Shown in pieces: positions 1 to 18,594 of a stretch of 55,698 nt of DNA. Position 1 is the stretch's first letter; every line of letters starts with the position of its first letter. A program made the translations under genes and the position numbers. The notes beneath the pieces were generated by a model, which did not search any database, was not told the DNA's origin, and was given only the letters and a program-made list of their open reading frames with translations. The DNA comes from Dehalococcoidia bacterium (GTDB lineage: Bacteria; Chloroflexota; Dehalococcoidia; DSTF01; WHTK01), in contig DASTLN010000226.1 of NCBI GenBank assembly GCA_035714925.1, positions 1 through 55,698 of the forward strand, written 5' to 3'.

Positions 1-476
1 TCCACACCGACAGCCAGGCAGACTCGTTGAACCGCGCCGTTAGCGCAGAGGCGTTCACGACCGGAAACGACATCTTCTTCCGCAGCGGTAGCTACAGCCC
101 CGGCAGCGACGATGGTCAGAAACTGCTGGCGCATGAGCTGACCCACGTGGTCCAGCAACGCAACGCCCCTCCGACTTCCGAGATGACCGTCAGCAGCCCG
201 GATGACGCCTCCGAGCGCGAGGCGAGCGCCGTCGCCGACTCCTATGGCTCGCAGTCTGCGGAGGCGGCCGCAGTGAGCCGGGAAGCGATGCCGGAGGAAG
301 AGGAGATGCTGCAAGGCTCCTTCGTCGACCGGCAGGGCATGGAGGAAGAAGAGCTGGTCCAAGGCTCCTTCATCGATCGGGAGAGTATGCCCGAAGAGGA
401 GGAAATGCTGCAGGGGTCCTACCTTGACCGGCAGGAGATACCCGAGGACGAGGAAGCCCGCCAGGACCAGGCCTGA
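1..476 (+). CDS. DUF4157 (eCIS core domain) protein, 5' partial, HExxH motif, acidic tandem-repeat tail
   Basis: The frame is open to the window edge, so the TTG at 27 is an ORF-caller artefact. The translation ..[52 protein letters not shown] matches the DUF4157 signature as I remember it (HT..A....A.AfT.G.dI.F....y.P....G..[12 protein letters not shown]). Stop is TGA at 474-476. Confidence 0.75.
288..455 (+). repeat. In-frame tandem peptide repeat, about 3 copies of M(P)EEEE(M/L)(L/V)QGS(F/Y)xDR(Q/E)x
   Basis: The copies read directly as [17 protein letters not shown] / [16 protein letters not shown] / [17 protein letters not shown], followed by a degenerate [12 protein letters not shown]. 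Confidence 0.85.
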
Positions 477-1706: not shown

Positions 1707-3314
1707 ATGCCAACAACCTATCAGGCACCAGGGGTCTACGTAGAGGAGGTACCGGGCGGTAGCCGGCCGATCGAGGGCGTCGGCACTTCGGTGGCGGCCT
1801 TCGTCGGCTTCGCCGAGAAGGGGCCTGTGGACGAGCCGGTCCGTGTCACCAACTGGACCCAGTACACGAACACGTTCGGCGGGTTCGTCAAGAGCGGCTA
1901 CATGCCGCTATCCGTCTACGGCTTCTTCGCCAACGGCGGCGGCAACGCCTGGGTGATCCGAGTCGGCGGTGACGTGGTTTCGACGCCCGCGATCGCGGCG
2001 CTACCGGCACGCGCCGGAGCCGAAGTGGACTCGCTACGAATCACCTCGAAGCTCACCGGCATGGACGCTAACGACATCACGGTCGAGATCGCAGCGGAAT
2101 CGCCCGCCGCGCCACCGGAGGAGCCGGCCGAAGGTGAATCCGCAGAAGCCAGCGGCGGCGGTGGCAGCGCCGAGGAGCCACGATTCCGGATCACGGTACA
2201 GCGGCCGGGCGGCGCCGCGGAGGTCTTCGACAACCTGACCCTGCGACGCGGTGACGCGCGCAACGCCGTGGACGTGATCAACGCCGAGTCCGGCTCGCAG
2301 TTCATCTCTATAGAGGACCTGGCGCCGCGCGGTCTGTCGATCGCCGACCGCGTGCCGACACCGGGCAACTACCCGCTCTCCGGCGGCACCGAAGCGCTGA
2401 CCTCCCTGGCGCCGTCAGACTTCCAGGGCTCCGTGGCAACGCGAAGCGGCATCGAAGGGCTGGAAGCGCTGGACGACGTGACGATGGTCCTGGCCCCGGA
2501 CATCATGAAGGCGTACCAGGACGGGCACCTGGACGTCGACGGCGTGATCTCCCTGCAGAAGGCGATGCTCGGCCACTGCGCGCGAATGGGCGACCGCGTC
2601 GCTATCCTCGACACACCGCCAGACCTGGACCCGACGCAGGTTGACGAATGGAAGACCAACATCGCACGCCTGATCTCGGACGACGGCTACGGTGCGCTCT
2701 ACTACCCCTGGATCAAAGTGGACGACCCCGCGATCAAGGGGACGAGCTTCATCCCGCCCAGCGGCCACATGGCCGGCGTCTGGGCCCGCACCGATAACCG
2801 CCGTGGCGTCCACAAGGCACCCGCTAACGAAGAGGTCATCGGGGCCATCGATGTCGAGACGAACGTCACGCACGCCGAGCTCGGGACGCTGAACGTCAAG
2901 AGCATCAACTGCATCCGAGCCTTCCCAGGCCGCGGCATTCGCGTCTGGGGCGCTCGCACCCTGGCCGAGGCGGCCTCCGAGTGGCGCTACCTCAACGTGC
3001 GTCGCTTGTTCAACTTCGTCGAGGCGTCAATCGAAAACGGCACGCAGTGGGTGGTGTTCGAGCCGAACGACCAGCGACTCTGGGGCGCGGTCAAGCGCGA
3101 CATCAGCGCCTTCCTGACGCGAGTCTGGGGGACCGGAGCGCTGTTCGGCACCACGGCATCTGAGGCGTTCTACGTCAAGTGCGACCGCGAGACTAACCCG
3201 CCGGAGATCATCGACGCCGGCATGATGGTCTGCGAAATCGGCATCGCGCCGGTGAAGCCGGCGGAGTTCATCATCTTCCACATCCGGCAGATCACGCCCG
3301 GGGCCACCGAGTAG
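1707..3314 (+). CDS. Contractile tail sheath protein (Afp2-4 / P2 FI-like)
   Basis: MPTTYQAPGVYVEEVPGGSRPIEGVGTSVAAFVG is the classic sheath N-terminus, and conserved C-terminal sheath blocks are present (INCIRAFPGRGIRVWGARTL). RBS GAGGAGGAG lies at 1693-1701. Confidence 0.93.
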   Translation: MPTTYQAPGVYVEEVPGGSRPIEGVGTSVAAFVGFAEKGPVDEPVRVTNWTQYTNTFGGFVKSGYMPLSVYGFFANGGGNAWVIRVGGDVVSTPAIAALPARAGAEVDSLRITSKLTGMDANDITVEIAAESPAAPPEEPAEGESAEASGGGGSAEEPRFRITVQRPGGAAEVFDNLTLRRGDARNAVDVINAESGSQFISIEDLAPRGLSIADRVPTPGNYPLSGGTEALTSLAPSDFQGSVATRSGIEGLEALDDVTMVLAPDIMKAYQDGHLDVDGVISLQKAMLGHCARMGDRVAILDTPPDLDPTQVDEWKTNIARLISDDGYGALYYPWIKVDDPAIKGTSFIPPSGHMAGVWARTDNRRGVHKAPANEEVIGAIDVETNVTHAELGTLNVKSINCIRAFPGRGIRVWGARTLAEAASEWRYLNVRRLFNFVEASIENGTQWVVFEPNDQRLWGAVKRDISAFLTRVWGTGALFGTTASEAFYVKCDRETNPPEIIDAGMMVCEIGIAPVKPAEFIIFHIRQITPGATE

Positions 3315-3365: not shown

Positions 3366-3824
3366 ATGCCAGACTTCTTCATTCCCGGCTTGCAGGACCC
3401 CCACGTAGTACACCACTTCGCGCTGGAGGTTCAGGGTGACGTCAAGGGGACGTTCCAGGAATGCACCGGTATGGAAACCAGCAACGAGGTTATCGAGCAC
3501 CGAGAGACCGACTTGCAGGGCAAGCAGCAACTGACGAAGATCCCCGGCCAGCTGAAGGTGGGCGACATCACGCTGAAGCGCGGCGTGACAGACGATACCT
3601 TCCTCTTCGACTGGCGCCAGCAGATCCTCAACGGCCAGGTCGACCTCGCCCGCAAGGACGGCTCGATCATCCTCCAGGACTCGATGGACCAGCAGGTCGC
3701 GCGGATCAACTTCACGCGGGCCTGGCCTCAGAAGTACAAGACCGGAGACTTCAAGGCCACCGAGAACAGCATCCTGATCGAGGAGGTTACCCTCGCAGTC
3801 GAGATGATTGAGAGAGCTCCGTGA
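3366..3824 (+). CDS. Tail tube protein (T4 gp19 / Afp1-like)
   Basis: It is 152 aa and directly follows the sheath gene. The FALEVQGDV.GTFQECTGMET pattern is typical of the conserved phage tail region tube family. RBS AAGGAG lies at 3352-3357. Confidence 0.85.
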   Translation: MPDFFIPGLQDPHVVHHFALEVQGDVKGTFQECTGMETSNEVIEHRETDLQGKQQLTKIPGQLKVGDITLKRGVTDDTFLFDWRQQILNGQVDLARKDGSIILQDSMDQQVARINFTRAWPQKYKTGDFKATENSILIEEVTLAVEMIERAP

Positions 3825-4216
3825 CCAATCTCCAGACGGAGTTCGACTTCATCCTGCCGAGAGGCTACGTCGACCGCAGCGGCACTGTGCACCGAAAGGG
3901 CCGCATGCGGTTGGCGACGGCGATGGACGAGATCACGCCGTTACGCGACCCGAGGGTGAGGCAGAACCAGGCTTACCACACGATCATCCTGCTGGCCCGC
4001 GTGGTCACCGAGTTGGGGACGCTGCCAGCGGCCGATACAGGTGTGATGGAAGGGCTGTTCACTGCCGACCTCGCGTTTCTGCAGGAGCTCTACCGCACAA
4101 AAAACGAGCTGGTGGGGCCGGACGCCGGAGAGGTACGGTGTCCCGCCTGCGGCGAGCACTTCGTCCCGCTGGCCGATACAGCGGAGGCCGTGGCAAACGC
4201 TGGCCCTTTAGTGTGA
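3821..4216 (+). CDS. P2 gpE-like tail assembly chaperone with C-terminal CxxC element
   Basis: The GTG start overlaps the tube stop (GTGA). The pattern GRMRLATAMDEI...ILLARVVTELGTL..ADTGVMEGLFTADLAFLQELY resembles the gpE / Phage_TAC_7 pattern (LR.pT.gd...lia.l.......i..L...Dy..Lq..y). Its position between the tube gene and the tape-measure-position gene also fits. Confidence 0.6.
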   Translation: MTNLQTEFDFILPRGYVDRSGTVHRKGRMRLATAMDEITPLRDPRVRQNQAYHTIILLARVVTELGTLPAADTGVMEGLFTADLAFLQELYRTKNELVGPDAGEVRCPACGEHFVPLADTAEAVANAGPLV

Positions 4217-4249
4217 GCGGACAGGAGGGCGAAGAACCCTGGCCTTTCC
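4204..4249 (+). promoter_or_regulatory. Candidate -1 programmed ribosomal frameshift signal: slippery heptamer C CCT TTA plus downstream stem-loop
   Basis: CCCTTTA at 4204-4210 is in the X XXY YYZ register of the 3821 frame, four codons before its stop. The A-site codon TTA is rare-looking for this GC-rich sequence. After an 8-nt spacer there is an imperfect stem-loop, GGACAGG-AGGG-cgaagaa-CCCT-gg-CCTTTCC, at 4219-4249. The -1 frame stays open to 4461. Confidence 0.45.
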
Positions 4250-4461
4250 AGATGTTGGGCCGGACCTGGGGCTCGGTTGGATACGACGAGTCGCAGATTT
4301 CGGAGGAGGTGGCGTACATCGCGTACCACTTCCACTGGCCGCTGGAGCAGATCCTGGAGCTGCAGCACTCCGACCGCCGTCGCTGGGCTCAGCTGATCAG
4401 CGGGATCAACGAGCGGATGAACGAGGAGGCCGGCAATCTGATGACGGCTTCCGGCCGGTAG
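4213..4461 (+). CDS. Small ORF: either an independent 69-82 aa protein or the E'-like -1 frameshift extension of the chaperone
   Basis: The frame is open from upstream. Candidate starts are GTG 4213 (GTGA overlap) or ATG 4252, and neither has a convincing SD. The translated tail GYDESQISEEVAYIAYHFHWPLEQILELQHSDRRRWAQLISGINERMNEE looks like a real folded peptide, unlike the Arg/Pro-rich upstream part of the same frame. Confidence 0.55.
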   Translation: MSGQEGEEPWPFQMLGRTWGSVGYDESQISEEVAYIAYHFHWPLEQILELQHSDRRRWAQLISGINERMNEEAGNLMTASGR

Positions 4462-4473
4462 CACAGAGGAACC

Positions 4474-4641
4474 ATGTCTGAGAGCCAGCCGATGCAACAG
4501 CCCGAAGCCGCGGAGAGCGAGCGTGTCCCCGACCTCGACCCGCGACAGGAAGAGCAGCTGACGGATCTCGTCTACCGGCTTCTGCGAAACGAGATCATGC
4601 GTGGACGAGAGCGTAGCGGCGAGCGACCGGTACGGAGATAG
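4474..4641 (+). CDS. 55-aa acidic/basic small protein (not in the supplied ORF track, below 60 aa)
   Basis: ATG at 4474 has AGAGGA 4-9 nt upstream. It translates as MSESQPMQQPEAAESERVPDLDPRQEEQLTDLVYRLLRNEIMRGRERSGERPVRR. It fills the gap between neighbouring genes, and its C-terminal motif recurs at the C-terminus of the 5093..6976 product. Confidence 0.5.
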   Translation: MSESQPMQQPEAAESERVPDLDPRQEEQLTDLVYRLLRNEIMRGRERSGERPVRR

Positions 4642-4644
4642 ACG

Positions 4645-5091
4645 ATGACGACCTTGCCGGGCAACGACGTCACCAGCAAGACGGCGGCCACTCAGCGCTT
4701 CTCGGTCGAGATAGATGGCTCGATCGCGGCGACCTTCAGCGAGTGCTCCGGCCTTGCGGTGCAGATCGCCACGGAGAAGTACGAAGAGGGCGGCGATAAC
4801 GGCGTGACGCTGAAGTTCCAGGGCAGGGTCGATTACACGAACATCGTGCTCAAACACGGCATTACGGAGTCAGCCGACCTGTTCGACTGGCTGTTGAGGA
4901 TCGTTCGGGGCGAATATGCCCGCAAGAACATTTCGGTCCGGGTCCTGACTTCAGACCTCTCGGAGATTCGCAGCTGGCAGTTCAAGGGCGCGTTTCCCGT
5001 GAAGTGGACAGGGCCAACACTCAATGCGACGTCGAGCTCGATCGCGATTGAAACGCTGGAGCTGGCACACGAAGGGTTTGTGACGGTCTAA
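4645..5091 (+). CDS. Second tail tube paralog (Afp5-like)
   Basis: It is 148 aa. The segment FSVEIDGSIAATFSECSGLAV...ITLKHGITES.DLFDWL parallels the first tube protein (FALEVQGDVKGTFQECTGMET...ITLKRGVTDDTFLFDW). Confidence 0.85.
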   Translation: MTTLPGNDVTSKTAATQRFSVEIDGSIAATFSECSGLAVQIATEKYEEGGDNGVTLKFQGRVDYTNIVLKHGITESADLFDWLLRIVRGEYARKNISVRVLTSDLSEIRSWQFKGAFPVKWTGPTLNATSSSIAIETLELAHEGFVTV

Positions 5092-5092
5092 C

Positions 5093-6976
5093 GTGACGAA
5101 CGAGAGAGATGGGCGGCCGATGTGGGGACGGCGGGACTGGTCCGGCTTGGCCCTCCGCCGCGCCAGCCGATGGCAGAGCCGCGGGACGGCACCGCGACCG
5201 GCATCGATCGGGCGGACGGTGAGGCAGCCCACGCTGCGACTCTTCGGTGCCGGGGCGCATCCGGGTCTGTCCATGGCGACCGCGCTGCCACGCTCGCTAC
5301 CGCTGGTCTTACGCCTGAAGCCGCCTGTGCGACCCGTCGGTCCCCCAATGCTGACAGTGCAAAGCAGCCTGCCCGCCGAAGCCGGCCCGAGCGCCCAACT
5401 GCCTGCTTTCAGCGGAGTAACGGCCAGCCAAACCGAAACGCAAGGCGTAGCGCCCGTGCCGGAGCCGCCGCGGGTGCAGGAGAAGCCCTCGCTGGTCAGC
5501 CAGGCTCTGCGGATATTGCGTAGGCAGGCTCCGCCAGCCGAGACAGAGCAGCCTCAGCCGTCTCCAGCGGTGGCAACGGGGGTAACTCCCGACGAAGCGG
5601 CACCCGCCGAGCCCGCGCGCTCCAGCGTCGAGACGCCAACACCGGCTCCGGTCGCTACTCGGCGGGCAGCACCGGCGCGGCCTGAGACACCGCGGGTCCT
5701 GCGACACACGACAGAGGCGCCTGCGGAGGCCACTTCGGAGCTGCCGGGAATCGCGCGTCAGCCGGAAGCACTGGATGCGCCGCAAAGACAGATTGCGAGC
5801 GCGCCGGAAGTCATCGAGGCTGAACAACCGACCGTGGCCGCAGAGAGGCCAACACCGCCCATGCCGAATTCTCAGAGGGCAGCGGGGCCTCGGCGCAGCG
5901 GCCTGCTTTATACCGTGCGGCGCGTCCTGCAGCGCGAGCCGACCAGCGCCGCTTTGGAGCCCGCAACACCGCAGGCGGCAAGCAGCGCATCGTCGCAGGC
6001 CCCATCCCCTCTCGCGAGCGAGCGCCAGGCAACGCCGAGGGAGACGCCGTCAACCGAGCCGGCGGCGCAAGAGGCGGGACCGCAGCGACACGAGACGGCA
6101 CAGGCGCCGGCCTACGCCGAGACGCCGCCACGCGGCGAGACGAATCCGCAGCCGGCCAGGCGCAGCGGGCCGTTGCTGACGTTGCGGCGGCTGTTCCGCC
6201 CCGATCCAGAGCCACCCGTTGAACGGCGGTCGGAGCTAGGCCAGGCCTTCACGTCCGACTCGCGTGAACCGGTGGTCCAACCGCACACACTCCGCGAGGA
6301 CCGGCTACCCGGCGAGCTGTTGCTGACTCCCGGAACACCGGCTCCGGCGACGCCGGTGATGCGCTCCGAGACCACCGAGACCGTGCGGGCGCTGGCGCGA
6401 CCACGGGCGGTCCAAACGGCCGGTTCGGCCGCGACCTCGGCCGCTACGGCAGCGACTCTCCAGGAGACGGCGACGACCCAGACGAGCCCAACGGCGAACT
6501 CACCTTCAACCGTGGTCGCCGAGCCGGTAGGGAGATCGGCTTCCGTGCCTACCGTGGACCGCAGCGACGCGGCAGGAACACGGACACGCGCGGCGCCGCG
6601 TTCGATGGTCTCGCCGCCGGCAACGTCTTTGGTGTACCTGGCCCGCAAGCCTTCGGCCGCGGCAGGGCGCGTTCCGGAGGGCATGACCACGTTCGAGGTA
6701 CCCCAGGAAGACCTGCGGTCGCTGGGGATCGCGGCGGCAGGCGACCCGGATCGAGGGGGCGATGTGCGGACGATCGCACGGGCCGTGTCGGTGTCAGATG
6801 TTGCCGCCGCAAGAGGCGCCACGGACGCCGCGAATGGCGACGAGACGAACGGCGAAGCCTCGCGAGGTGAGGTCAACCTGGAAACGCTAGCGCGACGGGT
6901 CTACGACCGTATACGCAATCGCCTGCGCATCGAGCGCGAACGCAGCGGGCTGAGCTCCGGGATTGTGGGCCGATGA
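5093..6976 (+). CDS. Pro/Ala/Thr/Glu-rich low-complexity protein in the tape-measure position (Afp14-like by position only)
   Basis: This is a long ORF between the second tube gene and the LysM gene. The start is uncertain: GTG 5093 or ATG 5273 (MATALPRSLPLVLRLKPP). Three basic motifs are present (SQALRILRRQ, RRSGLLYTVRRVLQ, RRSGPLLTLRRLFR), along with a conserved-looking C-terminus LETLARRVYDRIRNRLRIERERSG. Confidence 0.6.
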   Translation: MTNERDGRPMWGRRDWSGLALRRASRWQSRGTAPRPASIGRTVRQPTLRLFGAGAHPGLSMATALPRSLPLVLRLKPPVRPVGPPMLTVQSSLPAEAGPSAQLPAFSGVTASQTETQGVAPVPEPPRVQEKPSLVSQALRILRRQAPPAETEQPQPSPAVATGVTPDEAAPAEPARSSVETPTPAPVATRRAAPARPETPRVLRHTTEAPAEATSELPGIARQPEALDAPQRQIASAPEVIEAEQPTVAAERPTPPMPNSQRAAGPRRSGLLYTVRRVLQREPTSAALEPATPQAASSASSQAPSPLASERQATPRETPSTEPAAQEAGPQRHETAQAPAYAETPPRGETNPQPARRSGPLLTLRRLFRPDPEPPVERRSELGQAFTSDSREPVVQPHTLREDRLPGELLLTPGTPAPATPVMRSETTETVRALARPRAVQTAGSAATSAATAATLQETATTQTSPTANSPSTVVAEPVGRSASVPTVDRSDAAGTRTRAAPRSMVSPPATSLVYLARKPSAAAGRVPEGMTTFEVPQEDLRSLGIAAAGDPDRGGDVRTIARAVSVSDVAAARGATDAANGDETNGEASRGEVNLETLARRVYDRIRNRLRIERERSGLSSGIVGR

Positions 6977-6998
6977 TGCTGCCAGGAGGCCGGTTCTC

Positions 6999-7649
6999 AT
7001 GGCGCTGATGAAGGCCCTGATGATGGCGGTCGACCCGCCGGGCGGTCAGATCATCTTCCAGTACAACCCGACCAAGTACTCGGTGAAGAAGTCGGTCGAG
7101 TGGAAGGCGGGCGAGCAGAAGGGCGCAAACGTGCCGCCGCTGGAGTTCGTCAAGGGTAGCGGCCGCGAGGTCATGATGGAGCTCTTCCTCGACGACCTGC
7201 AAGGGGAGTCGGTGCGGACGGTGCTGGACCAAGTGGCGCAGCTCGACGTCTATACGCGGCCCAACATGCTGAACGTCTGGGCTTCAGGCAAGCCGCGACC
7301 GCCGCGCGTCATGTTCATCTGGTCCAACGTGCACGCGAACTTCCGGGCCGTGATCACCGGCATGACGGTTAACTACACGATGTTCCACGACGACGGACGG
7401 CCTTCGCGCGCCACGGTGAACCTGACGCTCAAGGAGTGGCACGACACGCTGCTGCCGCAGAACCCGACCTCGATGGGGAGCGCCGGTATGAGGACGCACC
7501 GCGTGATCGGCGGCGAGACGCTGGACACGATTGCGTTCCAGGAGCTGGGGTCGGCGGCTCAGTGGCGTCACATCGCGGAGCTAAACAACATTGACGACCC
7601 GCTGTCGATCTGGCCGGGTCAGCATCTGATGATCGCGCCGCCGAGGTAA
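6999..7649 (+). CDS. LysM-domain tube-initiator/baseplate hub protein (Afp7 / P2 gpX-like)
   Basis: ATG at 6999 has AGGAGG at 6984-6989, so the TTG 6963 start in the track is rejected. The C-terminal LysM pattern is HRVIGGETLDTIAFQELGSAAQWRHIAELNNIDDPLSIWPGQHLMI. Confidence 0.85.
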   Translation: MALMKALMMAVDPPGGQIIFQYNPTKYSVKKSVEWKAGEQKGANVPPLEFVKGSGREVMMELFLDDLQGESVRTVLDQVAQLDVYTRPNMLNVWASGKPRPPRVMFIWSNVHANFRAVITGMTVNYTMFHDDGRPSRATVNLTLKEWHDTLLPQNPTSMGSAGMRTHRVIGGETLDTIAFQELGSAAQWRHIAELNNIDDPLSIWPGQHLMIAPPR

Positions 7650-7651
7650 TC

Positions 7652-9415
7652 ATGGTTCTTCCTTCAGTCTCGCCTACCCTGAACCGTCCAATTACCCAGG
7701 TTTACGTCAAACTGGACGGCCGGGACCTTGACCCCGGCCTGGTCGAAGGCTTGCTGCGGGTTTCAGTTAACGGAAGCGTCCACCTGCCCGACCTAGCGAT
7801 CCTGGAGTTCGACAACCCGGACATGCGCTGGTCGGACGTCGATGCGATCAGGATCGGCCAGGAGATGACGGTCGGATTCGGTGACAACGAGCTGCAATCG
7901 GAGGAGCCCGTGTTCATGGGCGACGTCACGGCGCTGGACCTCGACGTCGGTATGGACGGGTCCGTGAAGCTGATAGTGCGCGGCTACGACCGGTCGCACC
8001 GCCTGCACCGCGGCCGCCAGACGAAGGTCTACGAGAACGTCAAAGACAGCGATATCGCGATGCAGATCGCGAGCGAGCTCGGGTTCGAGACGATCGAAAT
8101 CCAGACCACGCCGGGCACGCACGATTACGTGCTACAGGACAACCAGACGAACTGGGAATTCCTGCGGCAACGCGCCGCCCGACATGGCTACGAATTACAG
8201 GTGCGGGACAAGAAGCTGGTCTTCAAGCCGCCGCCCAGCACGGAGCGCCGCGACGTCGACCTAACCTGGAACCAGGAGCTGATCTCGTTCCGCGCGTCGA
8301 TGACGACCGGCGATCAGGTGAACAAGGTCGAGGTGCGCGGCTGGGACCCGGTGAACAAGGAAACGGTCCTTGGTACCGCCGACAGCGCCCAGACACTGCC
8401 TGACGTCCCGGGCGCAACGTTCGGCGGCAATGCTGGCGGTGCCGTTGCGCAACTGGCGTTTCAGCGCGAGGCCGTCATGGTCGTGGCGCGGCAGCCGATC
8501 TACAGCCAGGAGGACGCCGACCGCCTGGCGCAGTCCGTGCTGGAGGACCTGGCAGGCAGTTTCATCACGGCGCAGGGCGTCGCTGCAGGCAACCCGGAGC
8601 TTCAGCTGGGCAGCAAGGTCAATGTGAAGGACGTAGGGCGGCAGTTCTCCGGCAGTTACATGGTGACTCAGATCACCCACAACTACGAGCCCGAGAGCTA
8701 CACGATCAATTTCGAGGTTACGGGACGGCGGTCGACGGACCTGGTCAGCCTGCTCGAGGCGCCGCCGCACCAGGAGATGAACCTGCTGACGGGCATGGTG
8801 ATGGACCTCAATGACCCGGAAGGCTTGGGGCGAGTGAAGGTCAGCTTGCCGCAACTGGGCCCCGACATCTACACAGCGTGGTGTCGCCTAGTGGCGCCAG
8901 GCGCCGGCGCGACCCGAGGCATCTACTTCCTGCCCGAGATCGACGACGAGGTCCTGCTGATGGGAACGAGCATGGACAACCTCTACATCCTTGGCGGGCT
9001 GTGGAATAACCGCGACCAGCCGCCTTACGACAACAGCGATGCGGCACCAAACGGCGCGGTCATGAAGCGCACAATCCGGTCGCGGGAGGGGCACGAAATC
9101 CTTCTCGACGACGACCCGCGCGAGCCGGGGATATCGATTATCGACAAGGAAGGCAACAAGCTGCTGATAAAGTCGCGCGACAACAGCATGACGATCGACG
9201 TCCAGGGTGATATCAAGTTCAAAACGCCGGGCAATTTCGAGATCGACGCGACCGGCAACATCTCGATGAGCGCGACGGGCAACTTCAACGCCGAGGCGAT
9301 GGGCAACGCGTCCGTAGAGGCCAACGGGCAGGCGACTCTGCGCGGCACGGCCGGTGTCCGGGCAGAGAGCAGCGCAAACGCTGCGCTGAGCGCGCCGTCG
9401 GTGAGTCTGGGTTAG
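7652..9415 (+). CDS. VgrG-like spike/hub protein (Afp8; gpD-like N-terminus plus gp5 OB-fold plus beta-helix)
   Basis: The central segment GLGRVKVSLPQLGPDIYTAWCRLVAPGAGATRGIYFLPEIDDEVLL is the gp5/VgrG OB-fold signature. The C-terminus is repetitive in beta-helix style (GNFEIDATGNISMSATGNFNAEAMGNASVEANG). Confidence 0.9.
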   Translation: MVLPSVSPTLNRPITQVYVKLDGRDLDPGLVEGLLRVSVNGSVHLPDLAILEFDNPDMRWSDVDAIRIGQEMTVGFGDNELQSEEPVFMGDVTALDLDVGMDGSVKLIVRGYDRSHRLHRGRQTKVYENVKDSDIAMQIASELGFETIEIQTTPGTHDYVLQDNQTNWEFLRQRAARHGYELQVRDKKLVFKPPPSTERRDVDLTWNQELISFRASMTTGDQVNKVEVRGWDPVNKETVLGTADSAQTLPDVPGATFGGNAGGAVAQLAFQREAVMVVARQPIYSQEDADRLAQSVLEDLAGSFITAQGVAAGNPELQLGSKVNVKDVGRQFSGSYMVTQITHNYEPESYTINFEVTGRRSTDLVSLLEAPPHQEMNLLTGMVMDLNDPEGLGRVKVSLPQLGPDIYTAWCRLVAPGAGATRGIYFLPEIDDEVLLMGTSMDNLYILGGLWNNRDQPPYDNSDAAPNGAVMKRTIRSREGHEILLDDDPREPGISIIDKEGNKLLIKSRDNSMTIDVQGDIKFKTPGNFEIDATGNISMSATGNFNAEAMGNASVEANGQATLRGTAGVRAESSANAALSAPSVSLG

Positions 9416-9423
9416 AGAGAGCG

Positions 9424-9867
9424 ATGAACGACCACGCCAGCGGGAAAGAAATACTCGGTGTCGGATGGAACTTCCCGATCCGCGTCGACAGGCGACTGGA
9501 TACCGAGTTTGCGGCGCCGTACCGCGGCAGCGGCGGCATCGCCCTGTCGCGGCACGAGGAGGACATCGAGCAGGCGATCAGCATCGTGCTCTCGACGGCA
9601 AAGGGCGAACGCCGCATGCGGCCGACCTTCGGCTGCGACATCCATACGTTGGTCTACTCACCGGCCAACTCGTCGACGTTCAGTCTGATGCACGTCTACG
9701 TCGAGGAAGCGCTTCGGATGTGGGAGCCACGGATCGATGTCAGGGACGTGGGGATCACATCAGAAAACATCGACGGCCGGGTGGACATTACGGTCAGCTA
9801 CGAGGTCCGCACGACAAAGGATGCACGGACGCTGGTCTATCCCTTCTACATGTTAGGAGAGGACTAA
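9424..9867 (+). CDS. GPW/gp25 baseplate wedge protein (Afp9-like)
   Basis: GWNFPIRVD...IEQAISIVLSTAKGERRMRPTFGCDIHTLVYSP matches the gp25 family pattern. Confidence 0.88.
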   Translation: MNDHASGKEILGVGWNFPIRVDRRLDTEFAAPYRGSGGIALSRHEEDIEQAISIVLSTAKGERRMRPTFGCDIHTLVYSPANSSTFSLMHVYVEEALRMWEPRIDVRDVGITSENIDGRVDITVSYEVRTTKDARTLVYPFYMLGED

Positions 9868-9869
9868 TC

Positions 9870-11858
9870 ATGACGATGCAAGTGACGGAGCGGCGGCTGG
9901 ATTTGCGCGACTTCCAGGACATTGTCGACGAGGCGAAGCGCCTGATCCCTCGCTACTGCCCGGAGTGGACCGACCACAACGTCAGCGACCCCGGCGTGAC
10001 GCTTATCGAGCTGTTCGCCTGGATGACGGAGATGATCCTCTACCAACTCAATCGCCTGCCGGATGAGATGCACGAGCATTTCCTCGACCTGATCGGGGTG
10101 CAGCTCCGCCCGCCGGAGCCTGCTACGGTGGACATCACCTTTTACCTCTCGAAGCACCTGACGCAGCCGCTGGAGATCCCCACAGAAACGGAGATCGCAA
10201 CAGAGCGGACGGACGTTCAGGACGCAATCGTCTTCGCGACGACGAAGGCACTCAAGATGGAGCCGCCGCGGTTGGCGGGCCTGCGGGCCTGGCGCGAGGG
10301 CCAAGGCTTCGAAGACTACATGCCCTATGTCGCCAGCGGGCTGGTCGACGCGCCGATCTTCAACCAGGAGCCGGTCGACGGCGACGCGCTTTATATCGGC
10401 CTGCAGGGCGACCTCGGGGGCTCTAGCCTGGCGTTGCGCCTGGAGTGCCGAGAGCTCGAAGGCGTACACATCGACCCGAAAAATCCGCCCCTCGAGTGGG
10501 AGTACTGGTCCGCGAGCACGCAGATGTGGACACCGTTGCGGGTGTTGCACCAGTCGGGTACGGGACGGCTGCGTGAGCCGATGACGACCGATCCGACGCA
10601 TGGTCTCAACCGCGATGGCGACGTCTTCGTGAACATCCCCGTCGACTCTGCGCCGCGGGCGATCGATGGTATTGAGGCGACGTGGCTCCGCATTCGCTAC
10701 GTGCAAGAGGAAGGCCCCGGCTATACGGCATCTCCACGAATAACGGGCCTGCGTGCCGACCGCATCGGTGGGACCGTGACGGCGCGCCAGTCACAGCGAA
10801 TCAACGAGCTCGTGCTGGGCAAAGCCTCTGGAGAGCCCGGCGACCGCTTCACCGTGGCGCAGCGACCGATTTTGCGCAGCCGTGAACCGCACGTCATCGA
10901 GGCGAGATTAGGGGAAGACGTCACGACGTGGGTGGAGGTCGAAGACTTCTCGCTGTCCGGCGAGAGCGACCGGCACTTCATGATCCACTATCCCAGTGGC
11001 GAGATCCGCTTCGGCCCCGGCATCCGTTCCCGCGATGGTACCGAGCGTCAGCACGGCGCCGTGCCGCGAACCGGCGCTGACCTCGTGCTGCTGACCTACT
11101 ACACAGGCGGCGGCACGCGCGGCAACGTCGGCGAGCGGACGATCACGCAGATGAAGACCTCGATCCGGTACATCTCCGGCGTGACGAACTACGCACCGTC
11201 GATCGGTGGCCTGGACGAGGAGACGATCGGCGAAGCGAAGCTGCGCGGCGTGGCCGAGCTGAAGCACCCGGTGACGGCGGTAACCCGCGAGGACTTCGAG
11301 CTGCTGGCCGCGCAGACTCCCGGCGTGGGCGGTGCACGCTGCATTGCTCCCGGCGAAACGGGCGGCACGCCAGGCGTAATCCGGCTGCTGCTTCTACCCG
11401 ATCTCCCCGGACCGGACGTGGAGCTGACTCCGGAGCTAATGGTGCCCTCGCCTGCGCTGCTGCAGGCCGTGGGCGAGGTTGTCGAACAGCGGCGGAGCCT
11501 GGGCACGGTAGTCGAGATGGCGCCTGTGTCCGTCGTCTGGACGGAAATCGATGCGCACATCTACGTCAACCGCGGCATCGACGTCGACGAGGCGCAGAAG
11601 ATAGCAGAGGAGCGGCTACGGCGCCTGATGCACCCCACGATCGGTGGCGTGCAGGGCCAAGGCCTGTCCTTCGGCGGCGCTATCACGATGTCGCAGATCG
11701 CCGGGTCGCTGCAAAGCGTACAGGGCGTCGTCTACGTGGAGCGGGTGCTGTTGCGGCGGCAAGGAGACCCGGCGGAGCAGACGCGTATCCAGCCCTCGCC
11801 CGACTCCGTGCTGGCGCTGGGCCGCTGCTACGTCCTGGCCGAGGTCTTGGAGGACTGA
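9870..11858 (+). CDS. Baseplate J-like protein (Afp11 / P2 gpJ-like)
   Basis: ATG at 9870 follows AGGAGAGGA. The upstream 135 codons of the track ORF overlap the gp25 gene and are Arg-rich noise. The N-terminus is FQDIVDEAKRLIPRYCPEWTDHNVSDPGVTLIELFAWMTEMILYQLNRLPD, and a C-terminal TREDFE block is present. Confidence 0.88.
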   Translation: MTMQVTERRLDLRDFQDIVDEAKRLIPRYCPEWTDHNVSDPGVTLIELFAWMTEMILYQLNRLPDEMHEHFLDLIGVQLRPPEPATVDITFYLSKHLTQPLEIPTETEIATERTDVQDAIVFATTKALKMEPPRLAGLRAWREGQGFEDYMPYVASGLVDAPIFNQEPVDGDALYIGLQGDLGGSSLALRLECRELEGVHIDPKNPPLEWEYWSASTQMWTPLRVLHQSGTGRLREPMTTDPTHGLNRDGDVFVNIPVDSAPRAIDGIEATWLRIRYVQEEGPGYTASPRITGLRADRIGGTVTARQSQRINELVLGKASGEPGDRFTVAQRPILRSREPHVIEARLGEDVTTWVEVEDFSLSGESDRHFMIHYPSGEIRFGPGIRSRDGTERQHGAVPRTGADLVLLTYYTGGGTRGNVGERTITQMKTSIRYISGVTNYAPSIGGLDEETIGEAKLRGVAELKHPVTAVTREDFELLAAQTPGVGGARCIAPGETGGTPGVIRLLLLPDLPGPDVELTPELMVPSPALLQAVGEVVEQRRSLGTVVEMAPVSVVWTEIDAHIYVNRGIDVDEAQKIAEERLRRLMHPTIGGVQGQGLSFGGAITMSQIAGSLQSVQGVVYVERVLLRRQGDPAEQTRIQPSPDSVLALGRCYVLAEVLED

Positions 11859-12469
11859 TGACGGCCGAGCTTCTGCCGCAGACGTACACCAATGGCTTGT
11901 CCGGGAACGGCGGCCTCTATCCCGAGGATGAGGGCCTGGCCGCGACGCTGCCCAGCGCGTACCTGCGCTTCCTGCCCGCGATTTACTGGCAGGACTCGTT
12001 CATGGGGCGCTTCCTGCGTATTTTCGAGGACGTCCTCTCGCCGATTCAGACCAACGTGAGCCGGCGCGCCGACCAGTTCGACCCGGCGGTGGCGTCGCAG
12101 CCGCTTCTGCGCTTCATGGCGACATGGGTGGGCGCCAACGACCTCGGGGAGCTCCCAGAGCAGGAGCTTCGCGGCCTTGTACGGCGAACAGTGCGGCTGA
12201 ACCAGCTGCGCGGCACAAAAGCCGGCCTGCGGATGGCGCTGGAGACGATTACCGGCAAGCGTCCCTACATCACGGAGTACTCGGCCGGTCTGGTGCTGGG
12301 TGAGGATGCTGTGCTCGGCCTGAACACCTCCTTGCAAAGCGGCAGGCCGCTACAGATTCATGTTCTGTTCAATTGTGACGAAGATGAAGTAGACACCTCA
12401 TTAGCGCATGCTATAATTCGACGCTATAAACCCGCCGGAGCTGAATATAGCATTTCGTTCTTGACCTAG
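11858..12469 (+). CDS. P2 gpI-like tail/baseplate protein (N-terminal part of Afp12-type proteins)
   Basis: The start overlaps the upstream stop (TGATG). YLRFLPAIYWQDSFMGRFLRIFEDVLSPI and the C-terminal IIRRYKPAGAEYSISF fit the conserved phage-tail-region protein I family. Confidence 0.8.
   Translation: MTAELLPQTYTNGLSGNGGLYPEDEGLAATLPSAYLRFLPAIYWQDSFMGRFLRIFEDVLSPIQTNVSRRADQFDPAVASQPLLRFMATWVGANDLGELPEQELRGLVRRTVRLNQLRGTKAGLRMALETITGKRPYITEYSAGLVLGEDAVLGLNTSLQSGRPLQIHVLFNCDEDEVDTSLAHAIIRRYKPAGAEYSISFLT
12390..12417 (+). promoter_or_regulatory. Candidate sigma70-type internal promoter TAGACA-16 nt-TATAAT
   Basis: TAGACA at 12390-12395, a 16-nt spacer, then a perfect TATAAT at 12412-12417. 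It lies in a conspicuously AT-rich patch at the 3' end of the gpI-like gene, about 68 nt upstream of ATG 12485. Confidence 0.45.
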
Positions 12470-17566: not shown

Positions 17567-18594
17567 CCTCCCAGCTCACGGCCGAGGCGTCGCGTCTCAT
17601 CTGACGGCTCGACGCCCAGTTCCCGGTCCAGGATCTCGACGCAGGCACGATACTGCTGCACCGCTAGCGACCGGTTCCCCATCATGAGATGAGCATTCAC
17701 GACCATGCAGTGCGCGCCCTCGTCGCAGGCATCTCGACCAAGGATCTGACCAGCATAATCCAGGACACCGGGCCAATCGCGCTGCGTGGTAGCCTCCGTA
17801 GCCAGCCAAGTCAGGGCCCGGTGCCAGGCGGCGTTGAAACGCCGACGCGGTTCGGCAGTCCATTCCTCGTAGGGATCACTGGACATCAGCTCGCCCCGGC
17901 AGAGGGCGACGGCATCGCGAAGATGCGCCCGCACGTTACGTTTGTCATCACGCTCCAGTGCCCGCCGCGCCTGGTCGAGGTGGCTCTGCAGGTCCCAGAG
18001 GTCCACGGCGACGTCTTCGAAGCCGATACCATAGAGGCCTTGGCGAACGGTAATCACGTCCGAGGCCTCCCGCGAGATCGCAGCAAGGCTGCTGCGGATC
18101 TGATAGATCGCGATGCTCAGGTTATTGGCGCCGCGGCCGGCGCGTGAGCCCGGCCAGAAGAGCTCGATGAGAATGTCCTTCGGGACCATGCGGCCCTTCT
18201 CCATGGCGAGGTAGGCAAGCAGGAGGCGCGCTTTGCGGCCGGGCCAGTTGGTCACGAGCCTTCCGCCGACGTGCGCCTCAAAGGGGCCGAGAAGCGACAG
18301 CGTCAGCCTGGGCTGCGTTGCCGGCGGCAAAGACGGGGCGGAATCGGCCATCGGCGCCGGTGCGGCGAGACGCTGGCTCACGGCATCGAGAATCTCGGTA
18401 CTCATCTCGCGCAGGCTGGTTAGCTCGACCTGGGAGCTCTCGGAAATCGCCTGCAGACGGTCGAGGCGTCCCAGGATGACCCGCAGCATATCTGGCTCGG
18501 CCGCCAACAGCGGCCTTTCGAGGATGAAGGGAAGCGCAGGTCGACCACCAAGCGTGACGGTAGGCGAAAGGATGGCTTCGCCGGGCATGTCCAA
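17563..18594 (-). CDS. SARP/AfsR-DnrI-type transcriptional regulator (winged helix plus BTAD)
   Basis: LSLLGPFEAHVGGRLVTNWPGRKARLLLAYLAMEKGRMVPKDILIELFWP is an OmpR/PhoB-type wHTH. The following DPYEEWTAEPRRRFNAAWHRAL...AVQQYRACVEILDRELGVEPSDET is a BTAD-type domain. Confidence 0.85.
   Translation of the reverse strand: MDMPGEAILSPTVTLGGRPALPFILERPLLAAEPDMLRVILGRLDRLQAISESSQVELTSLREMSTEILDAVSQRLAAPAPMADSAPSLPPATQPRLTLSLLGPFEAHVGGRLVTNWPGRKARLLLAYLAMEKGRMVPKDILIELFWPGSRAGRGANNLSIAIYQIRSSLAAISREASDVITVRQGLYGIGFEDVAVDLWDLQSHLDQARRALERDDKRNVRAHLRDAVALCRGELMSSDPYEEWTAEPRRRFNAAWHRALTWLATEATTQRDWPGVLDYAGQILGRDACDEGAHCMVVNAHLMMGNRSLAVQQYRACVEILDRELGVEPSDETRRLGRELGG

What the first reader, a model, noticed from the sequence alone, without database searches (positions are those of the whole stretch)
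3821..4461. Candidate gpE/E'-type -1 programmed frameshift inside a CIS locus
The 131-aa ORF after the tube gene has a gpE-like tail-assembly-chaperone pattern. Four codons before its stop sits a canonical X XXY YYZ slippery heptamer, C CCT TTA (4204-4210), in the correct register. The A-site codon TTA appears rare in this GC-rich sequence and is the same A-site codon as in the HIV-1 UUUUUUA site. Eight nt downstream is a stem-loop (4219-4249). The -1 frame continues for about 83 codons into a peptide that looks genuinely protein-like (..YDESQISEEVAYIAYHFHWPLEQILELQHSDRRRW..). That downstream ORF has no good SD for either of its possible own starts. This mirrors the conserved lambda G/GT and P2 E/E+E' recoding located between the tube and tape-measure genes. 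I am not aware of this being described for Afp/PVC-type loci. The predicted fusion junction is ..VANAGPL|SVSGQEGEE..
Basis: partly seen in the sequence, partly recalled or inferred. Interest (0 to 1): 0.7.

Follow-up and report, generated by a model that had tools for sequence, protein, structure and literature searches.

The report
Conserved -1 frameshift in injection-system chaperone gene
A gene in a phage-tail-like bacterial injection system almost certainly makes two proteins from one message by a programmed ribosome slip, as phage tail-assembly chaperone genes do; comparison with 155 related loci shows the slip is conserved in bacteria and archaea, and I found no description of it.

Summary
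C CCT TTA (4204-4210) sits in the correct register two codons before the stop of the 131-aa ORF (3821-4216). The -1 frame then runs 83 codons to TAG 4459-4461 and encodes DUF6760 (PF20546, E=1.3e-15).

The frameshift reading is strongly supported by comparison.
- DUF6760 lies in the -1 frame in 155 of 156 loci (bacteria and archaea).
- 123 loci have a canonical X XXY YYZ heptamer in register in the overlap, and 30 more have a G5 run.
- About half have no start codon before the conserved DUF6760 core.
- In the window's own clade (19 loci, 75-87% identity where reported), CCCTTTA is invariant in 18, despite rare codons and diverged flanks. The window's possible starts, GTG 4213 and ATG 4252, are not conserved.

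The claimed stem-loop (4219-4249) is not supported: it is no better than shuffles and not conserved. Most other clades do have a conserved hairpin a few nt 3' of their G-rich slip site.

The upstream ORF is remotely related to phage tail assembly chaperones (PHROG 508). RefSeq annotates two separate genes, and I found no paper describing this recoding. I class it as a new member of a known kind (lambda G/GT, P2 E/E+E'). It gives DUF6760 an expression route and a likely role. Protein-level proof is still missing.

The parts
3366..3824 (+). Tube gene (T4 gp19 / Afp1-like) immediately upstream; its stop overlaps the GTG start of the chaperone-like ORF
   Evidence: PF06841 E=8.2e-35
3821..4216 (+). 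0-frame ORF, 131 aa. Tail-assembly-chaperone-like protein with a single C-terminal CPxC knuckle. This is the short product.
   Evidence: PHROG 508 'tail assembly chaperone' E=6.6e-5 for the window protein; 51 of 61 homologues match, best 3.8e-10. Zn_ribbon_4 is below threshold. NCBI names homologues 'phage tail assembly protein'.
4183..4187 (+). SD-like GGAGG 16 nt 5' of the heptamer; possible dnaX-type upstream stimulator (inferred, not shown)
   Evidence: GGAGG sits 10-17 nt upstream of the slip site in most of the 19 clade members, and every member has at least GAGG or GGAG there (read by eye from the listing). Across 153 loci, GAGG occurs at -24..-5 in 59% against 8% of control windows. 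This may partly reflect coding for Glu-Val/Ala.
4204..4210 (+). Slippery heptamer C CCT TTA in X XXY YYZ register
   Evidence: Sequence. Invariant in 18 of 19 clade members; L002 has C CCT TTC. Flanks are diverged. Both codons are rare.
4210..4461 (+). -1 frame extension: 83 codons plus TAG. Contains an acidic linker, an FxxLGxxW motif and DUF6760. The long product is 130 + 83 = 213 aa.
   Evidence: Translation. GC3 0.9 in this frame. The linker is conserved as protein in relatives.
4282..4431 (+). DUF6760 core (..YDESQISEEVAYIAYHFHWPLEQILELQHSDRRRW..), predicted as a small three-helix domain
   Evidence: PF20546 E=1.3e-15, residues 24-73 of the 82-aa reading. AlphaFold2 model has helices 26-40, 44-48 and 52-80, with core pLDDT 84-87.
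4219..4249 (+).
   Evidence: z=-0.07 and +0.50 against shuffles. No conserved structure in the clade. No Rfam match.
4474..4641 (+). 55-aa ORF between the recoded gene and the second tube gene. It shares a C-terminal motif, RNx[IL]xxxRERSG, with the 627-aa ORF.
   Evidence: also called as a gene on the public contig
4645..5091 (+). Second tube gene (Afp5-like)
   Evidence: PF06841 E=9.6e-42
5093..6976 (+). 627-aa Pro/Ala/Arg/Thr-rich, probably disordered protein just upstream of the LysM/tube-initiator and VgrG genes. Positional candidate for the tape-measure-like client of the chaperone (inferred).
   Evidence: No Pfam, PHROG or NCBIfam hit. Composition and C-terminal motif. Its position matches that of Tme in S. 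davawensis (PMC11126660).

Best explanation
The chaperone-like gene is decoded in two ways.

Most ribosomes read CCU-UUA-GUG-UGA and release a 131-aa protein. A minority slip one base back on C CCU UUA: tRNA-Pro moves from CCU to CCC and tRNA-Leu from UUA to UUU. They then read AGU GUG AGC .. in the -1 frame and make a 213-aa protein. This long product has the same N-terminal 130 residues, joined through an acidic linker to the DUF6760 three-helix domain.

By analogy with lambda gpG/gpGT and P2 gpE/gpE+E', I infer the following roles. The shared N-terminal domain holds an extended tape-measure-like or lumen protein; candidates are the 627-aa ORF 5093-6976 or the 55-aa ORF. The DUF6760 domain, made at a fixed low ratio, recruits tube subunits so that the tube polymerises on the baseplate hub. 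Neither product is expected in the finished particle.

What is shown: the anatomy; the conservation of frame, overlap and slip site; and the lack of conserved start codons. What is inferred: the slip itself, its efficiency, and the chaperone role of each domain.

In this clade the slip site has moved about 57 nt upstream of where most clades have it. It has no downstream hairpin. An upstream GGAGG may serve as the stimulator.
For: Family level:
- DUF6760 is in the -1 frame in 79/80 genome loci and 75/75 metagenome loci. These span Chloroflexota, Bacillota, Actinomycetota, Armatimonadota, Verrucomicrobia, Desulfobacterales, Haloferax, Methanosarcina and ANME-2.
- The open -1 frame overlaps the end of the chaperone gene in all but one of these loci.
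- 123 loci have a canonical heptamer (G GGG GGG/A, A AAT TTT, T TTT TTG/A, C CCG GGG, C CCT TTA ...), 30 have a G5 run, and 1 has neither.
- Register control: 59, 17 and 7 of 80 loci for the three registers. Control windows inside the gene: 27/491.
- 39/81 loci have no ATG/GTG/TTG between the upstream -1-frame stop and the DUF6760 core, which usually begins 4-16 nt before the 0-frame stop.
- G-rich classes have a hairpin a few nt 3' of the slip site: z about -3; 79% of cells paired against 33-49% for slid controls; 33 double-change cells against 11.5 in shuffles. Another clade has a stem of different sequence at the same place.
- No clean in-frame fusion appears among more than 1000 homologues. 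The few 'fusions' carry indel errors.

Window clade:
- CCCTTTA is invariant in 18/19.
- The 0-frame stop is TAG in most relatives, so the GTGA overlap becomes GTA-G and cannot start translation.
- ATG 4252 is not conserved.
- The linker is conserved as protein.
- Both slip-site codons are rare.

Chaperone link: PHROG 508. CIS context.
Against: - There is no proteomic, ribosome-profiling or reporter evidence for any member.
- In this window the downstream ORF does have possible starts of its own (GTG 4213 overlapping TGA; ATG 4252), so some independent initiation cannot be excluded here.
- C CCU UUA is not among the heptamers known to be efficient in bacteria. Its precedent (Giardiavirus) is itself disputed (PMC8230311).
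- No stimulatory structure was found for this clade.
- One locus (L069) has no overlap and has its own SD plus TTG, so DUF6760 can apparently be made separately.
- Homology to P2 gpE / Pfam Phage_TAC_7 is not detectable.
- The AlphaFold model of the chaperone domain is too poor (pLDDT 60) for a fold comparison.
- No recognisable tape measure gene lies immediately downstream.
Confidence: 0.85

Rival explanations
1. There are two ordinary genes. DUF6760 is started independently, by stop-start coupling at GTG 4213 (GTGA overlap) or at ATG 4252. The heptamer is then incidental.
For: - The window has GTG 4213 overlapping TGA 4214-4216, and ATG 4252.
- Gene callers and PGAP annotate two genes.
- Some loci have an ATGA/GTGA overlap.
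- L069 has its own SD and TTG.
- A 4-nt overlap would also give a -1 frame relation.
Against: - In the window's clade the codon at the overlap is GTA in most relatives (stop TAG). ATG 4252 is not conserved. 10/19 have no start codon before the core.
- Family-wide, 39/81 loci have no start codon before the conserved core.
- The overlap is usually 10-40 nt or more, not 4 nt.
- The conserved protein sequence (..GG[IV]xGYPLDRL.., or PFSVxGE..FRxLGxxW here) starts at the slip site, upstream of any start.
- Coupling does not explain why in-register heptamers are enriched (74% against 5.5%).
- GTG 4213 has no SD, and AGGAGG lies 23 nt from ATG 4252.
Confidence: 0.1
2. The frame change happens in the mRNA, not on the ribosome. 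RNA polymerase slips on a homopolymer run and makes transcripts with one base more or less.
For: Many relatives have runs of 7-8 G or 6-7 T at the site. Such runs could support some transcriptional realignment.
Against: - The window's clade has only CCC TTT, with no run longer than 3, yet keeps the same arrangement.
- Heptamers such as A AAT TTT, C CCG GGG and G GGA AAC/T fit tandem tRNA slippage, not polymerase slippage.
- The conserved hairpin a few nt 3' of the site in G-run clades is the classic ribosomal stimulator layout.
Confidence: 0.03
3. It is chance. A heptamer near a stop codon, plus a long open -1 frame, is simply what GC-rich DNA produces.
For: The -1 frame is open across the whole chaperone gene (3808-4461), as is common at 64% GC. 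The gene contains two other in-register heptamers, at 3895 and 4099.
Against: - In-register heptamers occur about once per 600 codons.
- The -1 frame relation holds in 155/156 loci, including low-GC Bacillota whose -1 frame opens only 10-40 nt before the stop.
- CCCTTTA is invariant in the clade despite rare codons.
Confidence: 0.01

Closest known systems
Conserved -1 programmed frameshift in tail assembly chaperone genes of tailed phages: lambda G/GT, P2 E/E+E', Mu and others (Xu, Hendrix & Duda, Mol Cell 2004; JMB 2014; cited from my own knowledge. The P2 annotation was seen.)
   Same: - Two overlapping ORFs lie directly after the tube gene.
- The downstream ORF is in the -1 frame and has no conserved start.
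- A slippery heptamer sits in the overlap, a few codons before the 0-frame stop.
- The slip position and frame are conserved while the heptamer sequence varies between lineages. T TTT TTG, the P2 heptamer, is used by the Paenibacillus and other Bacillota loci here.
- The short product shows remote homology to a phage chaperone family (PHROG 508).
   Different: - The host is a non-viral contractile injection system. There is no hit in 50,697 phage genomes.
- The extension is DUF6760, a family with no assigned function.
- The short product carries a CPxC knuckle.
- No recognisable tape measure gene follows directly: a 55-aa ORF and a second tube gene come first.
- There is no detectable sequence similarity to P2 gpE or Pfam Phage_TAC_7 (1 of 61 homologues, E=0.006).
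E. coli dnaX -1 frameshift: upstream SD-like element, A AAA AAG, downstream hairpin (from my own knowledge)
   Same: - It is a cellular (non-phage) -1 frameshift that gives two products sharing an N-terminus.
- The window clade has a possible upstream GGAGG 10-17 nt from the heptamer.
- Other clades have a hairpin a few nt downstream.
   Different: - In dnaX the shifted product is the shorter one. Here the shift extends the protein by a whole domain.
- The heptamer is different.
- The stimulatory role of the GGAGG is untested.
Lineage II eCIS / cytoplasmic CIS loci (Chen et al. 2019, PMC6899500; Casu et al. 2023, PMC10066040; Nagakubo et al. 2024, PMC11126660)
   Same: The gene set and order match: Pvc16-type cap, sheath, tube..., tube, LysM/tube initiator, VgrG, baseplate J, eCIS_core/DUF4157 protein. 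Related loci also carry the AAA+ ATPase.
   Different: These papers list 'subtype-specific genes' of unknown function and say typical tape measure and Afp6/12/13/14 homologues are absent or divergent. In term searches of the four CIS papers I checked for 'frameshift' and 'chaperone', frameshift never occurs and no CIS assembly chaperone is named. DUF6760 occurs in no paper of the searched library.

Membership tests
Phage-type tail assembly chaperone with conserved -1 frameshift (G/GT, E/E+E') | Downstream ORF in the -1 frame, overlapping the 3' end of the upstream ORF, across homologues | tested here: met
   155/156 loci are in the -1 frame. All but L069 of the -1 loci overlap.
Phage-type tail assembly chaperone with conserved -1 frameshift (G/GT, E/E+E') | Slippery sequence in the overlap, in the 0-frame register, conserved in position but not in sequence | tested here: met
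   123 loci have a canonical heptamer and 30 have a G5 run. CCCTTTA is invariant in the window clade.
Phage-type tail assembly chaperone with conserved -1 frameshift (G/GT, E/E+E') | Downstream ORF lacks its own translation start | tested here: met
   39/81 loci, and 10/19 clade members, have no ATG/GTG/TTG before the conserved core. The window itself has two candidate starts, but neither is conserved and neither has a usable SD.
Phage-type tail assembly chaperone with conserved -1 frameshift (G/GT, E/E+E') | Located between the tube (major tail) gene and the tape measure gene | tested here: inconclusive
   The pair lies directly after the tube gene. Downstream come a 55-aa ORF, a second tube gene, and then a 627-aa disordered ORF with no tape-measure homology.
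Phage-type tail assembly chaperone with conserved -1 frameshift (G/GT, E/E+E') | Sequence or fold homology of the short product to known chaperone families | tested here: inconclusive
   PHROG 508 is matched by 51/61 homologues (best 3.8e-10; window protein 6.6e-5). Pfam Phage_TAC_7 is matched by 1/61 (E=0.006). hhalign against P2 gpE gives probability 0.3%. The AlphaFold model has pLDDT 60 and Foldseek is uninformative.
Phage-type tail assembly chaperone with conserved -1 frameshift (G/GT, E/E+E') | Both products are made at a fixed ratio, are needed for tail or tube assembly, and are absent from the finished particle | not testable with these tools
   Needs proteomics, genetics and particle analysis.
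DUF6760 (PF20546) | Match to the Pfam model above the gathering score | tested here: met
   57.7 bits against 27, E=1.3e-15. All 71 homologues carry PF20546.
Contractile injection system locus (eCIS / CIS, lineage II-like) | Cap (Pvc16/Afp16), sheath, tube, LysM tube initiator, VgrG spike, baseplate J, eCIS_core protein; no phage head or replication genes | tested here: met
   Pfam hits. No match to any phage genome for the recoded gene. I did not look for the AAA+ ATPase across the whole window, but it is adjacent in related loci.
dnaX-type stimulated -1 frameshift | Upstream SD-like element and/or downstream hairpin at the right spacing | tested here: inconclusive
   Window: GGAGG lies 16 nt upstream, and there is no significant or conserved hairpin. 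Other clades have a conserved hairpin a few nt downstream.

The most novel reading that the evidence does not exclude
Lineage-II-type contractile injection systems of bacteria and archaea may assemble their tubes by a phage-like chaperone pathway that has gone unnoticed. That would include systems said to lack a typical tape measure. The pathway would depend on an obligatory -1 frameshift that makes a chaperone-DUF6760 fusion, with DUF6760 as the functional counterpart of the lambda 'T' domain. In most clades the stimulatory hairpin is built from the codons of DUF6760's own conserved GYPL...EEVA motif, so an RNA signal and a protein motif would be co-encoded. The archaeal members (Haloferax, Halogeometricum, Methanosarcina, ANME-2) would be cellular archaeal genes with a conserved -1 programmed frameshift, which I believe has few documented cases.
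Probability: 0.5. Interest if true: 0.72.

Novelty: new member of a known kind. Interest (0 to 1): 0.62.

Why it matters
1. It gives an uncharacterised Pfam family (DUF6760) an expression mechanism and a testable role. Gene callers give its members arbitrary or truncated starts (46-100 aa). RefSeq lists the pair as two genes.
2. How CIS tube length and assembly are controlled is described as poorly understood (bioRxiv 10.64898/2026.05.27.728243). Lineage II and Streptomyces systems are said to lack a typical tape measure. A conserved chaperone pair points to the client protein and to experiments.
3. People who re-code, codon-optimise or split these operons to engineer protein-delivery particles would unknowingly destroy the slip site and its hairpin.
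4. The 156 aligned sites are a natural series of slip sites (G-run, T-run, A AAT TTT, C CCU UUA), with and without a hairpin. This is useful for studying frameshift signals in Gram-positives, Chloroflexota and archaea.

Tried and rejected
- Stem-loop 4219-4249 as stimulator: rejected. z is about 0 against shuffles and there is no conserved structure in 14 clade sequences. No Rfam match in 3700-4700.
- GTGA stop-start coupling at 4213: rejected as the conserved mechanism, because relatives have GTA-G there.
- Natural in-frame fusions as 'Rosetta stone' evidence: none is reliable.
  - L050 is fused at a 6-G run, but it comes from a long-read MAG and its frame breaks again downstream.
  - P0296, P0312, P0291, P0342 and P0344 carry out-of-frame stretches or come from a 0.48x-coverage contig.
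- Fold comparison of the chaperone domain: the model is too poor (pLDDT 60) and the best Foldseek E is 0.025. PDB sequence and profile searches found nothing.
- hhalign against P2 gpE: no similarity.
A structure I defined by hand was then counted on that alignment.
- Literature searches for DUF6760 and for frameshifting in CIS, eCIS or tailocins found nothing relevant.
- The second heptamer, A AAA AAC at 4099, was rejected as the slip site. The -1 frame is not open there in relatives such as L091.
Full report
**1. What is in the window**

The region lies in a contractile injection system (CIS) locus. In order, the genes are:
- an eCIS_core/DUF4157 protein (27-476)
- a Pvc16-type cap (741-1661)
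- sheath (1707-3314)
- tube (3366-3824)
- the 131-aa ORF of the finding (3821-4216)
- a DUF6760 ORF in the next frame (to 4461)
- a 55-aa ORF (4474-4641)
- a second tube gene (4645-5091)
- a 627-aa ORF with no family match (5093-6976)
- LysM/CIS_tube (6963-7649)
- VgrG (7652-9415)
- baseplate J (9465-11858)
- Tail_P2_I (11858-12469)

The heptamer C CCT TTA is at 4204-4210. The 0-frame codons are CCT TTA GTG TGA, so the register is X XXY YYZ. The -1 frame from 4210 runs 83 codons to TAG 4459-4461. GC3 is about 0.9 in frame 2 up to roughly 4200 and about 0.9 in frame 1 afterwards. The -1 product is DUF6760 (PF20546, 57.7 bits, E=1.3e-15).

TTA is 1.8% of Leu codons and CCT is 9% of Pro codons in the window's CIS genes. 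In-register heptamers occur 10 times in 6000 codons.

**2. The stem-loop**

The hairpin 4219-4249 appears in the MFE fold, but it is no more stable than dinucleotide shuffles (z=-0.07 for 4211-4255; z=+0.50 for 4204-4290). In 14 sequences of the window's clade, RNAalifold finds essentially no consensus structure (-0.3 kcal/mol). Rfam has no match. This part of the finding is not supported.

**3. Comparative test across the family**

I built HMMs of the two proteins from database hits. I applied them to stop-to-stop segments of 80 loci from species-representative genomes and 80 metagenome loci.

The genome loci come from Chloroflexota, Bacillota (Lachnospiraceae, Oscillospiraceae, Paenibacillus, Cohnella), Actinomycetota, Armatimonadota, Verrucomicrobiia, Desulfobacterales, a Haloferax plasmid, Methanosarcina and ANME-2.

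Results for the 156 loci that hold both domains, counting the window:
- DUF6760 is in the -1 frame in 155.
- The exception, L050, is an in-frame reading at a 6-G run. It comes from a long-read MAG whose frame breaks again downstream.
- The open -1 frame overlaps the end of the upstream gene in all but one of the -1 loci.
- That one, L069, has its own GAGGTGA plus TTG start.
- 123 loci have a canonical X XXY YYZ heptamer in the 0-frame register inside the overlap.
- 30 more have a run of five or more G (typically CUG GGG GAA) at the same place.

| Heptamer | Loci |
|---|---|
| G GGG GGG | 38 |
| G GGG GGA | 22 |
| C CCT TTA | 18 |
| A AAT TTT | 12 |
| C CCG GGG | 11 |
| T TTT TTG | 9 |
| T TTT TTA | 6 |
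| others | 7 |

Controls:
- In the last 45 nt of the gene, 59/80 loci have a heptamer in the correct register, against 17 and 7 in the other two registers.
- Only 27/491 interior windows have one.
- The DUF6760 homology usually begins 4-16 nt before the 0-frame stop.
- 39/81 loci have no ATG, GTG or TTG between the preceding -1-frame stop and that core.

A 4-nt ATGA/GTGA overlap would also give a -1 relation. It cannot explain these features.

**4. The window's own clade**

Nineteen loci form the clade: the window, L001, L002, and L081-L097 without L090. The 16 metagenome members are 75-87% identical to the window protein.
- CCCTTTA is invariant in 18. L002 has CCCTTTC.
- The 30 nt on either side, and the encoded residues, vary.
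- In most relatives the 0-frame stop is TAG. The codon matching the window's GTG 4213 is then GTA, which cannot start translation.
- ATG 4252 is not conserved.
- 10/19 have no start codon between the slip site and the DUF6760 core.
- The linker is conserved as protein in the -1 frame (PFSV-x-GE-acidic-..-F/I-R-x-L-G-x-x-W-..-Y), and its indels are multiples of three.

So the region right after the heptamer is translated in the -1 frame in genomes where nothing but a frameshift can bring ribosomes into it.

Compared with most clades, the slip site here lies about 57 nt further upstream of the DUF6760 core, and a linker of about 20 residues has been added.

**5. Stimulatory elements**

I folded the 60 nt that start 4 nt after the heptamer. 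Mean z-scores against shuffles:

| Slip-site class | Mean z |
|---|---|
| G-run classes | -2.8 to -3.6 |
| T TTT TTG | -0.1 |
| A AAT TTT | -1.0 |
| T TTT TTA | -1.4 |
| C CCT TTA (window's class) | -0.43 |

The G-run structure is a 14-bp hairpin, GGCUACC.CCUCG ... CGAGG.AGGUAGCC. It starts about 5-7 nt after the heptamer in the loci I checked by eye. It is built from the codons of the DUF6760 motif G-Y-P-L ... E-E-V-A.

I counted this structure on 94 distinct sequences:

| Measure | Structure as given | Slid controls | Shuffles |
|---|---|---|---|
| Cells paired | 79% | 33-49% | 75.8% |
| Cells changed on both sides | 33 | 21-36 | 11.5 (0/500 reach 33) |
| Covariation score | 0.152 | 0.07-0.09 | 0.112 |

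The double-change count alone does not separate the structure from the slid controls. The percentage paired and the covariation score do.

An Actinomycetota/Limnocylindria subclade has a stem of quite different sequence at the same place (GACGUACGCGA ... UCGCGUACGUC). This is the classic layout of a -1 frameshift signal. It supports ribosomal frameshifting for the family.

The window's clade has no such hairpin. It does have GGAGG 10-17 nt upstream of the heptamer (4183-4187 in the window, 16 nt away) in most of its 19 members (by eye). Family-wide, GAGG lies at -24..-5 in 59% of loci against 8% of control windows. This resembles the dnaX upstream SD-like stimulator. It may also reflect Glu-Val/Ala coding, so I treat it as a lead only.

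**6. What the proteins are**

The 131-aa protein:
- It matches PHROG 508 'tail assembly chaperone' (E=6.6e-5). 51 of 61 diverse homologues match, best 3.8e-10.
- NCBI names homologues 'phage tail assembly protein'.
- Only 1/61 reaches Pfam Phage_TAC_7 (E=0.006).
- hhalign against P2 gpE finds nothing.
- PDB searches find nothing.
- The AlphaFold2 model is poor (pLDDT 60), so the Foldseek result is meaningless.
- It has a single conserved CPxC. Zn-ribbon models score below threshold.

DUF6760 is predicted as three helices, with pLDDT 84-87 in the core.

The pair has no tblastn match in 50,697 phage genomes. It occurs on plasmids and megaplasmids of Streptomyces, Rhodococcus, Ralstonia, Paraburkholderia, Deinococcus, Haloferax and Halogeometricum. 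Where annotation is available, it lies among AAA+ ATPase, Pvc16, sheath, tube, LysM, gpD/VgrG, PAAR, gp25 and baseplate J genes. RefSeq annotates two separate genes. In Rhodococcus, DUF6760 is cut down to 47 aa. The junctions of these cultured strains show the same architecture: G GGG GGA, G GGA AAT, or a G5 run.

**7. Mechanism and function**

Best explanation, confidence about 0.85: a -1 programmed ribosomal frameshift at C CCU UUA makes a minor 213-aa chaperone-DUF6760 fusion beside the major 131-aa product.

The function is inferred from lambda G/GT and P2 E/E+E' (my own knowledge of Xu, Hendrix & Duda 2004 and 2014). The shared domain would coat an extended tape-measure-like protein. The frameshift-added domain would recruit tube subunits.

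Positional candidates for the client are the 627-aa Pro/Ala/Arg/Thr-rich ORF and the 55-aa ORF. They share a C-terminal RNx[IL]xxxRERSG motif. The 627-aa ORF lies just upstream of the tube-initiator and spike genes, as does the tape-measure-related effector Tme of S. davawensis (PMC11126660).

No clean in-frame fusion appears among more than 1000 homologues. This fits selection for two products.

Rivals:
- Independent initiation (0.1). It is possible as a side route in this window and evidently real in L069.
- Transcriptional slippage (0.03). It does not fit CCCTTT.
- Chance (0.01).

**8. Novelty**

- DUF6760 occurs in no paper of the searched library.
- Searches combining CIS, eCIS or tailocin with frameshift and chaperone terms found nothing relevant.
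- Chen et al. 2019 call the extra lineage II genes subtype-specific and say Afp6/12/13/14 are absent or divergent.
- Casu et al. 2023 state that a typical tape measure is absent from the Streptomyces CIS.
- A 2026 preprint says the eCIS length-determining mechanism is not well understood, and cites phage chaperones only by analogy.

The mechanism itself is textbook for phage tails, and CIS derive from phage tails. I therefore rate this as a new member of a known kind. It has practical consequences for annotation and for engineering these systems, and some wider interest because archaeal cellular members are included.

CCCUUUA as a -1 heptamer has a proposed but disputed precedent in Giardiavirus (PMC8230311).

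**9. Limits**

- All evidence is comparative. No protein, ribosome-profiling or reporter data exist.
- The census covers the CPxC-type homologues with at least about 53% identity to the window protein. The Zn-less actinobacterial homologues were not examined.
- The frameshift efficiency, the role of the GGAGG, and the binding partners are all unknown.

Noticed in passing
L004, L006, L017, L018, L025 and others (G-run loci), a few nt 3' of their slip sites; L005, L014, L029, L059, L073 for the alternative stem: A conserved 10-14 bp hairpin, GGCUACC.CCUCG...CGAGG.AGGUAGCC, is built from the codons of the DUF6760 motif GYPL...EEVA. An actinobacterial/Limnocylindria subclade has a stem of different sequence (GACGUACGCGA...UCGCGUACGUC) at the same place. 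The window's CCCTTTA clade has neither.
   Followed up: yes
window 4474-4641 and 5093-6976: The 55-aa ORF and the 627-aa Pro/Ala/Arg/Thr-rich, probably disordered ORF end in the same motif (..RNEIMRGRERSG.. and ..RNRLRIERERSG..). Similar tails appear downstream in L050 and in P0288. This could be a shared docking signal of tape-measure-like or lumen proteins.
   Followed up: partly
L069 4340-4400 (Oscillospiraceae MAG): This is the only locus where the -1 frame does not overlap the chaperone gene. DUF6760 has its own GAGGTGA SD and TTG start there, so the frameshift seems to have been replaced by independent initiation.
   Followed up: partly
L050 345-1154; proteins P0296, P0312, P0291, P0342, P0344: Apparent single-ORF chaperone-DUF6760 fusions exist in databases. 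All show out-of-frame stretches, homopolymer length differences or very low coverage, so they are probably sequencing or assembly errors at or near the slip site rather than natural fusions.
   Followed up: yes
proteins P0192-P0199 and P0242, P0254, P0263, P0268, P0272: Some representatives carry two or three tandem copies of the chaperone domain in one protein. Actinobacterial homologues without the CPxC have long acidic tails ending in a conserved RRxRIEEVG-like motif. I did not check whether these are followed by DUF6760.
   Followed up: no
window 4099-4105 and 3895-3901: Two more in-register heptamers (A AAA AAC, A AAG GGC) lie inside the chaperone gene, where the -1 frame is open in the window. 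In relatives the -1 frame is closed there, so they are probably incidental.
   Followed up: partly
window 4183-4187, and the same position in L001, L002, L081-L097: GGAGG lies 10-17 nt upstream of the slip site in most clade members. Family-wide, GAGG is enriched at -24..-5 (59% against 8%). This could be a dnaX-like stimulator or a by-product of Glu-Val/Ala codons.
   Followed up: partly
window 27-476 and 17563-18594 (-): An eCIS_core (DUF4157) protein lies at the left edge of the window. A SARP-type regulator (BTAD + Trans_reg_C) lies on the opposite strand at the right end of the CIS operon.
   Followed up: no
L161 7390-7533 (Rhodococcus pWB1); L162 3519-3788 (Halogeometricum pHBOR03): RefSeq annotates DUF6760 as a separate gene with inconsistent starts: 47 aa starting inside the conserved core in one record, and a 4-nt overlap start in the other. 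No ribosomal slippage is annotated.
   Followed up: yes
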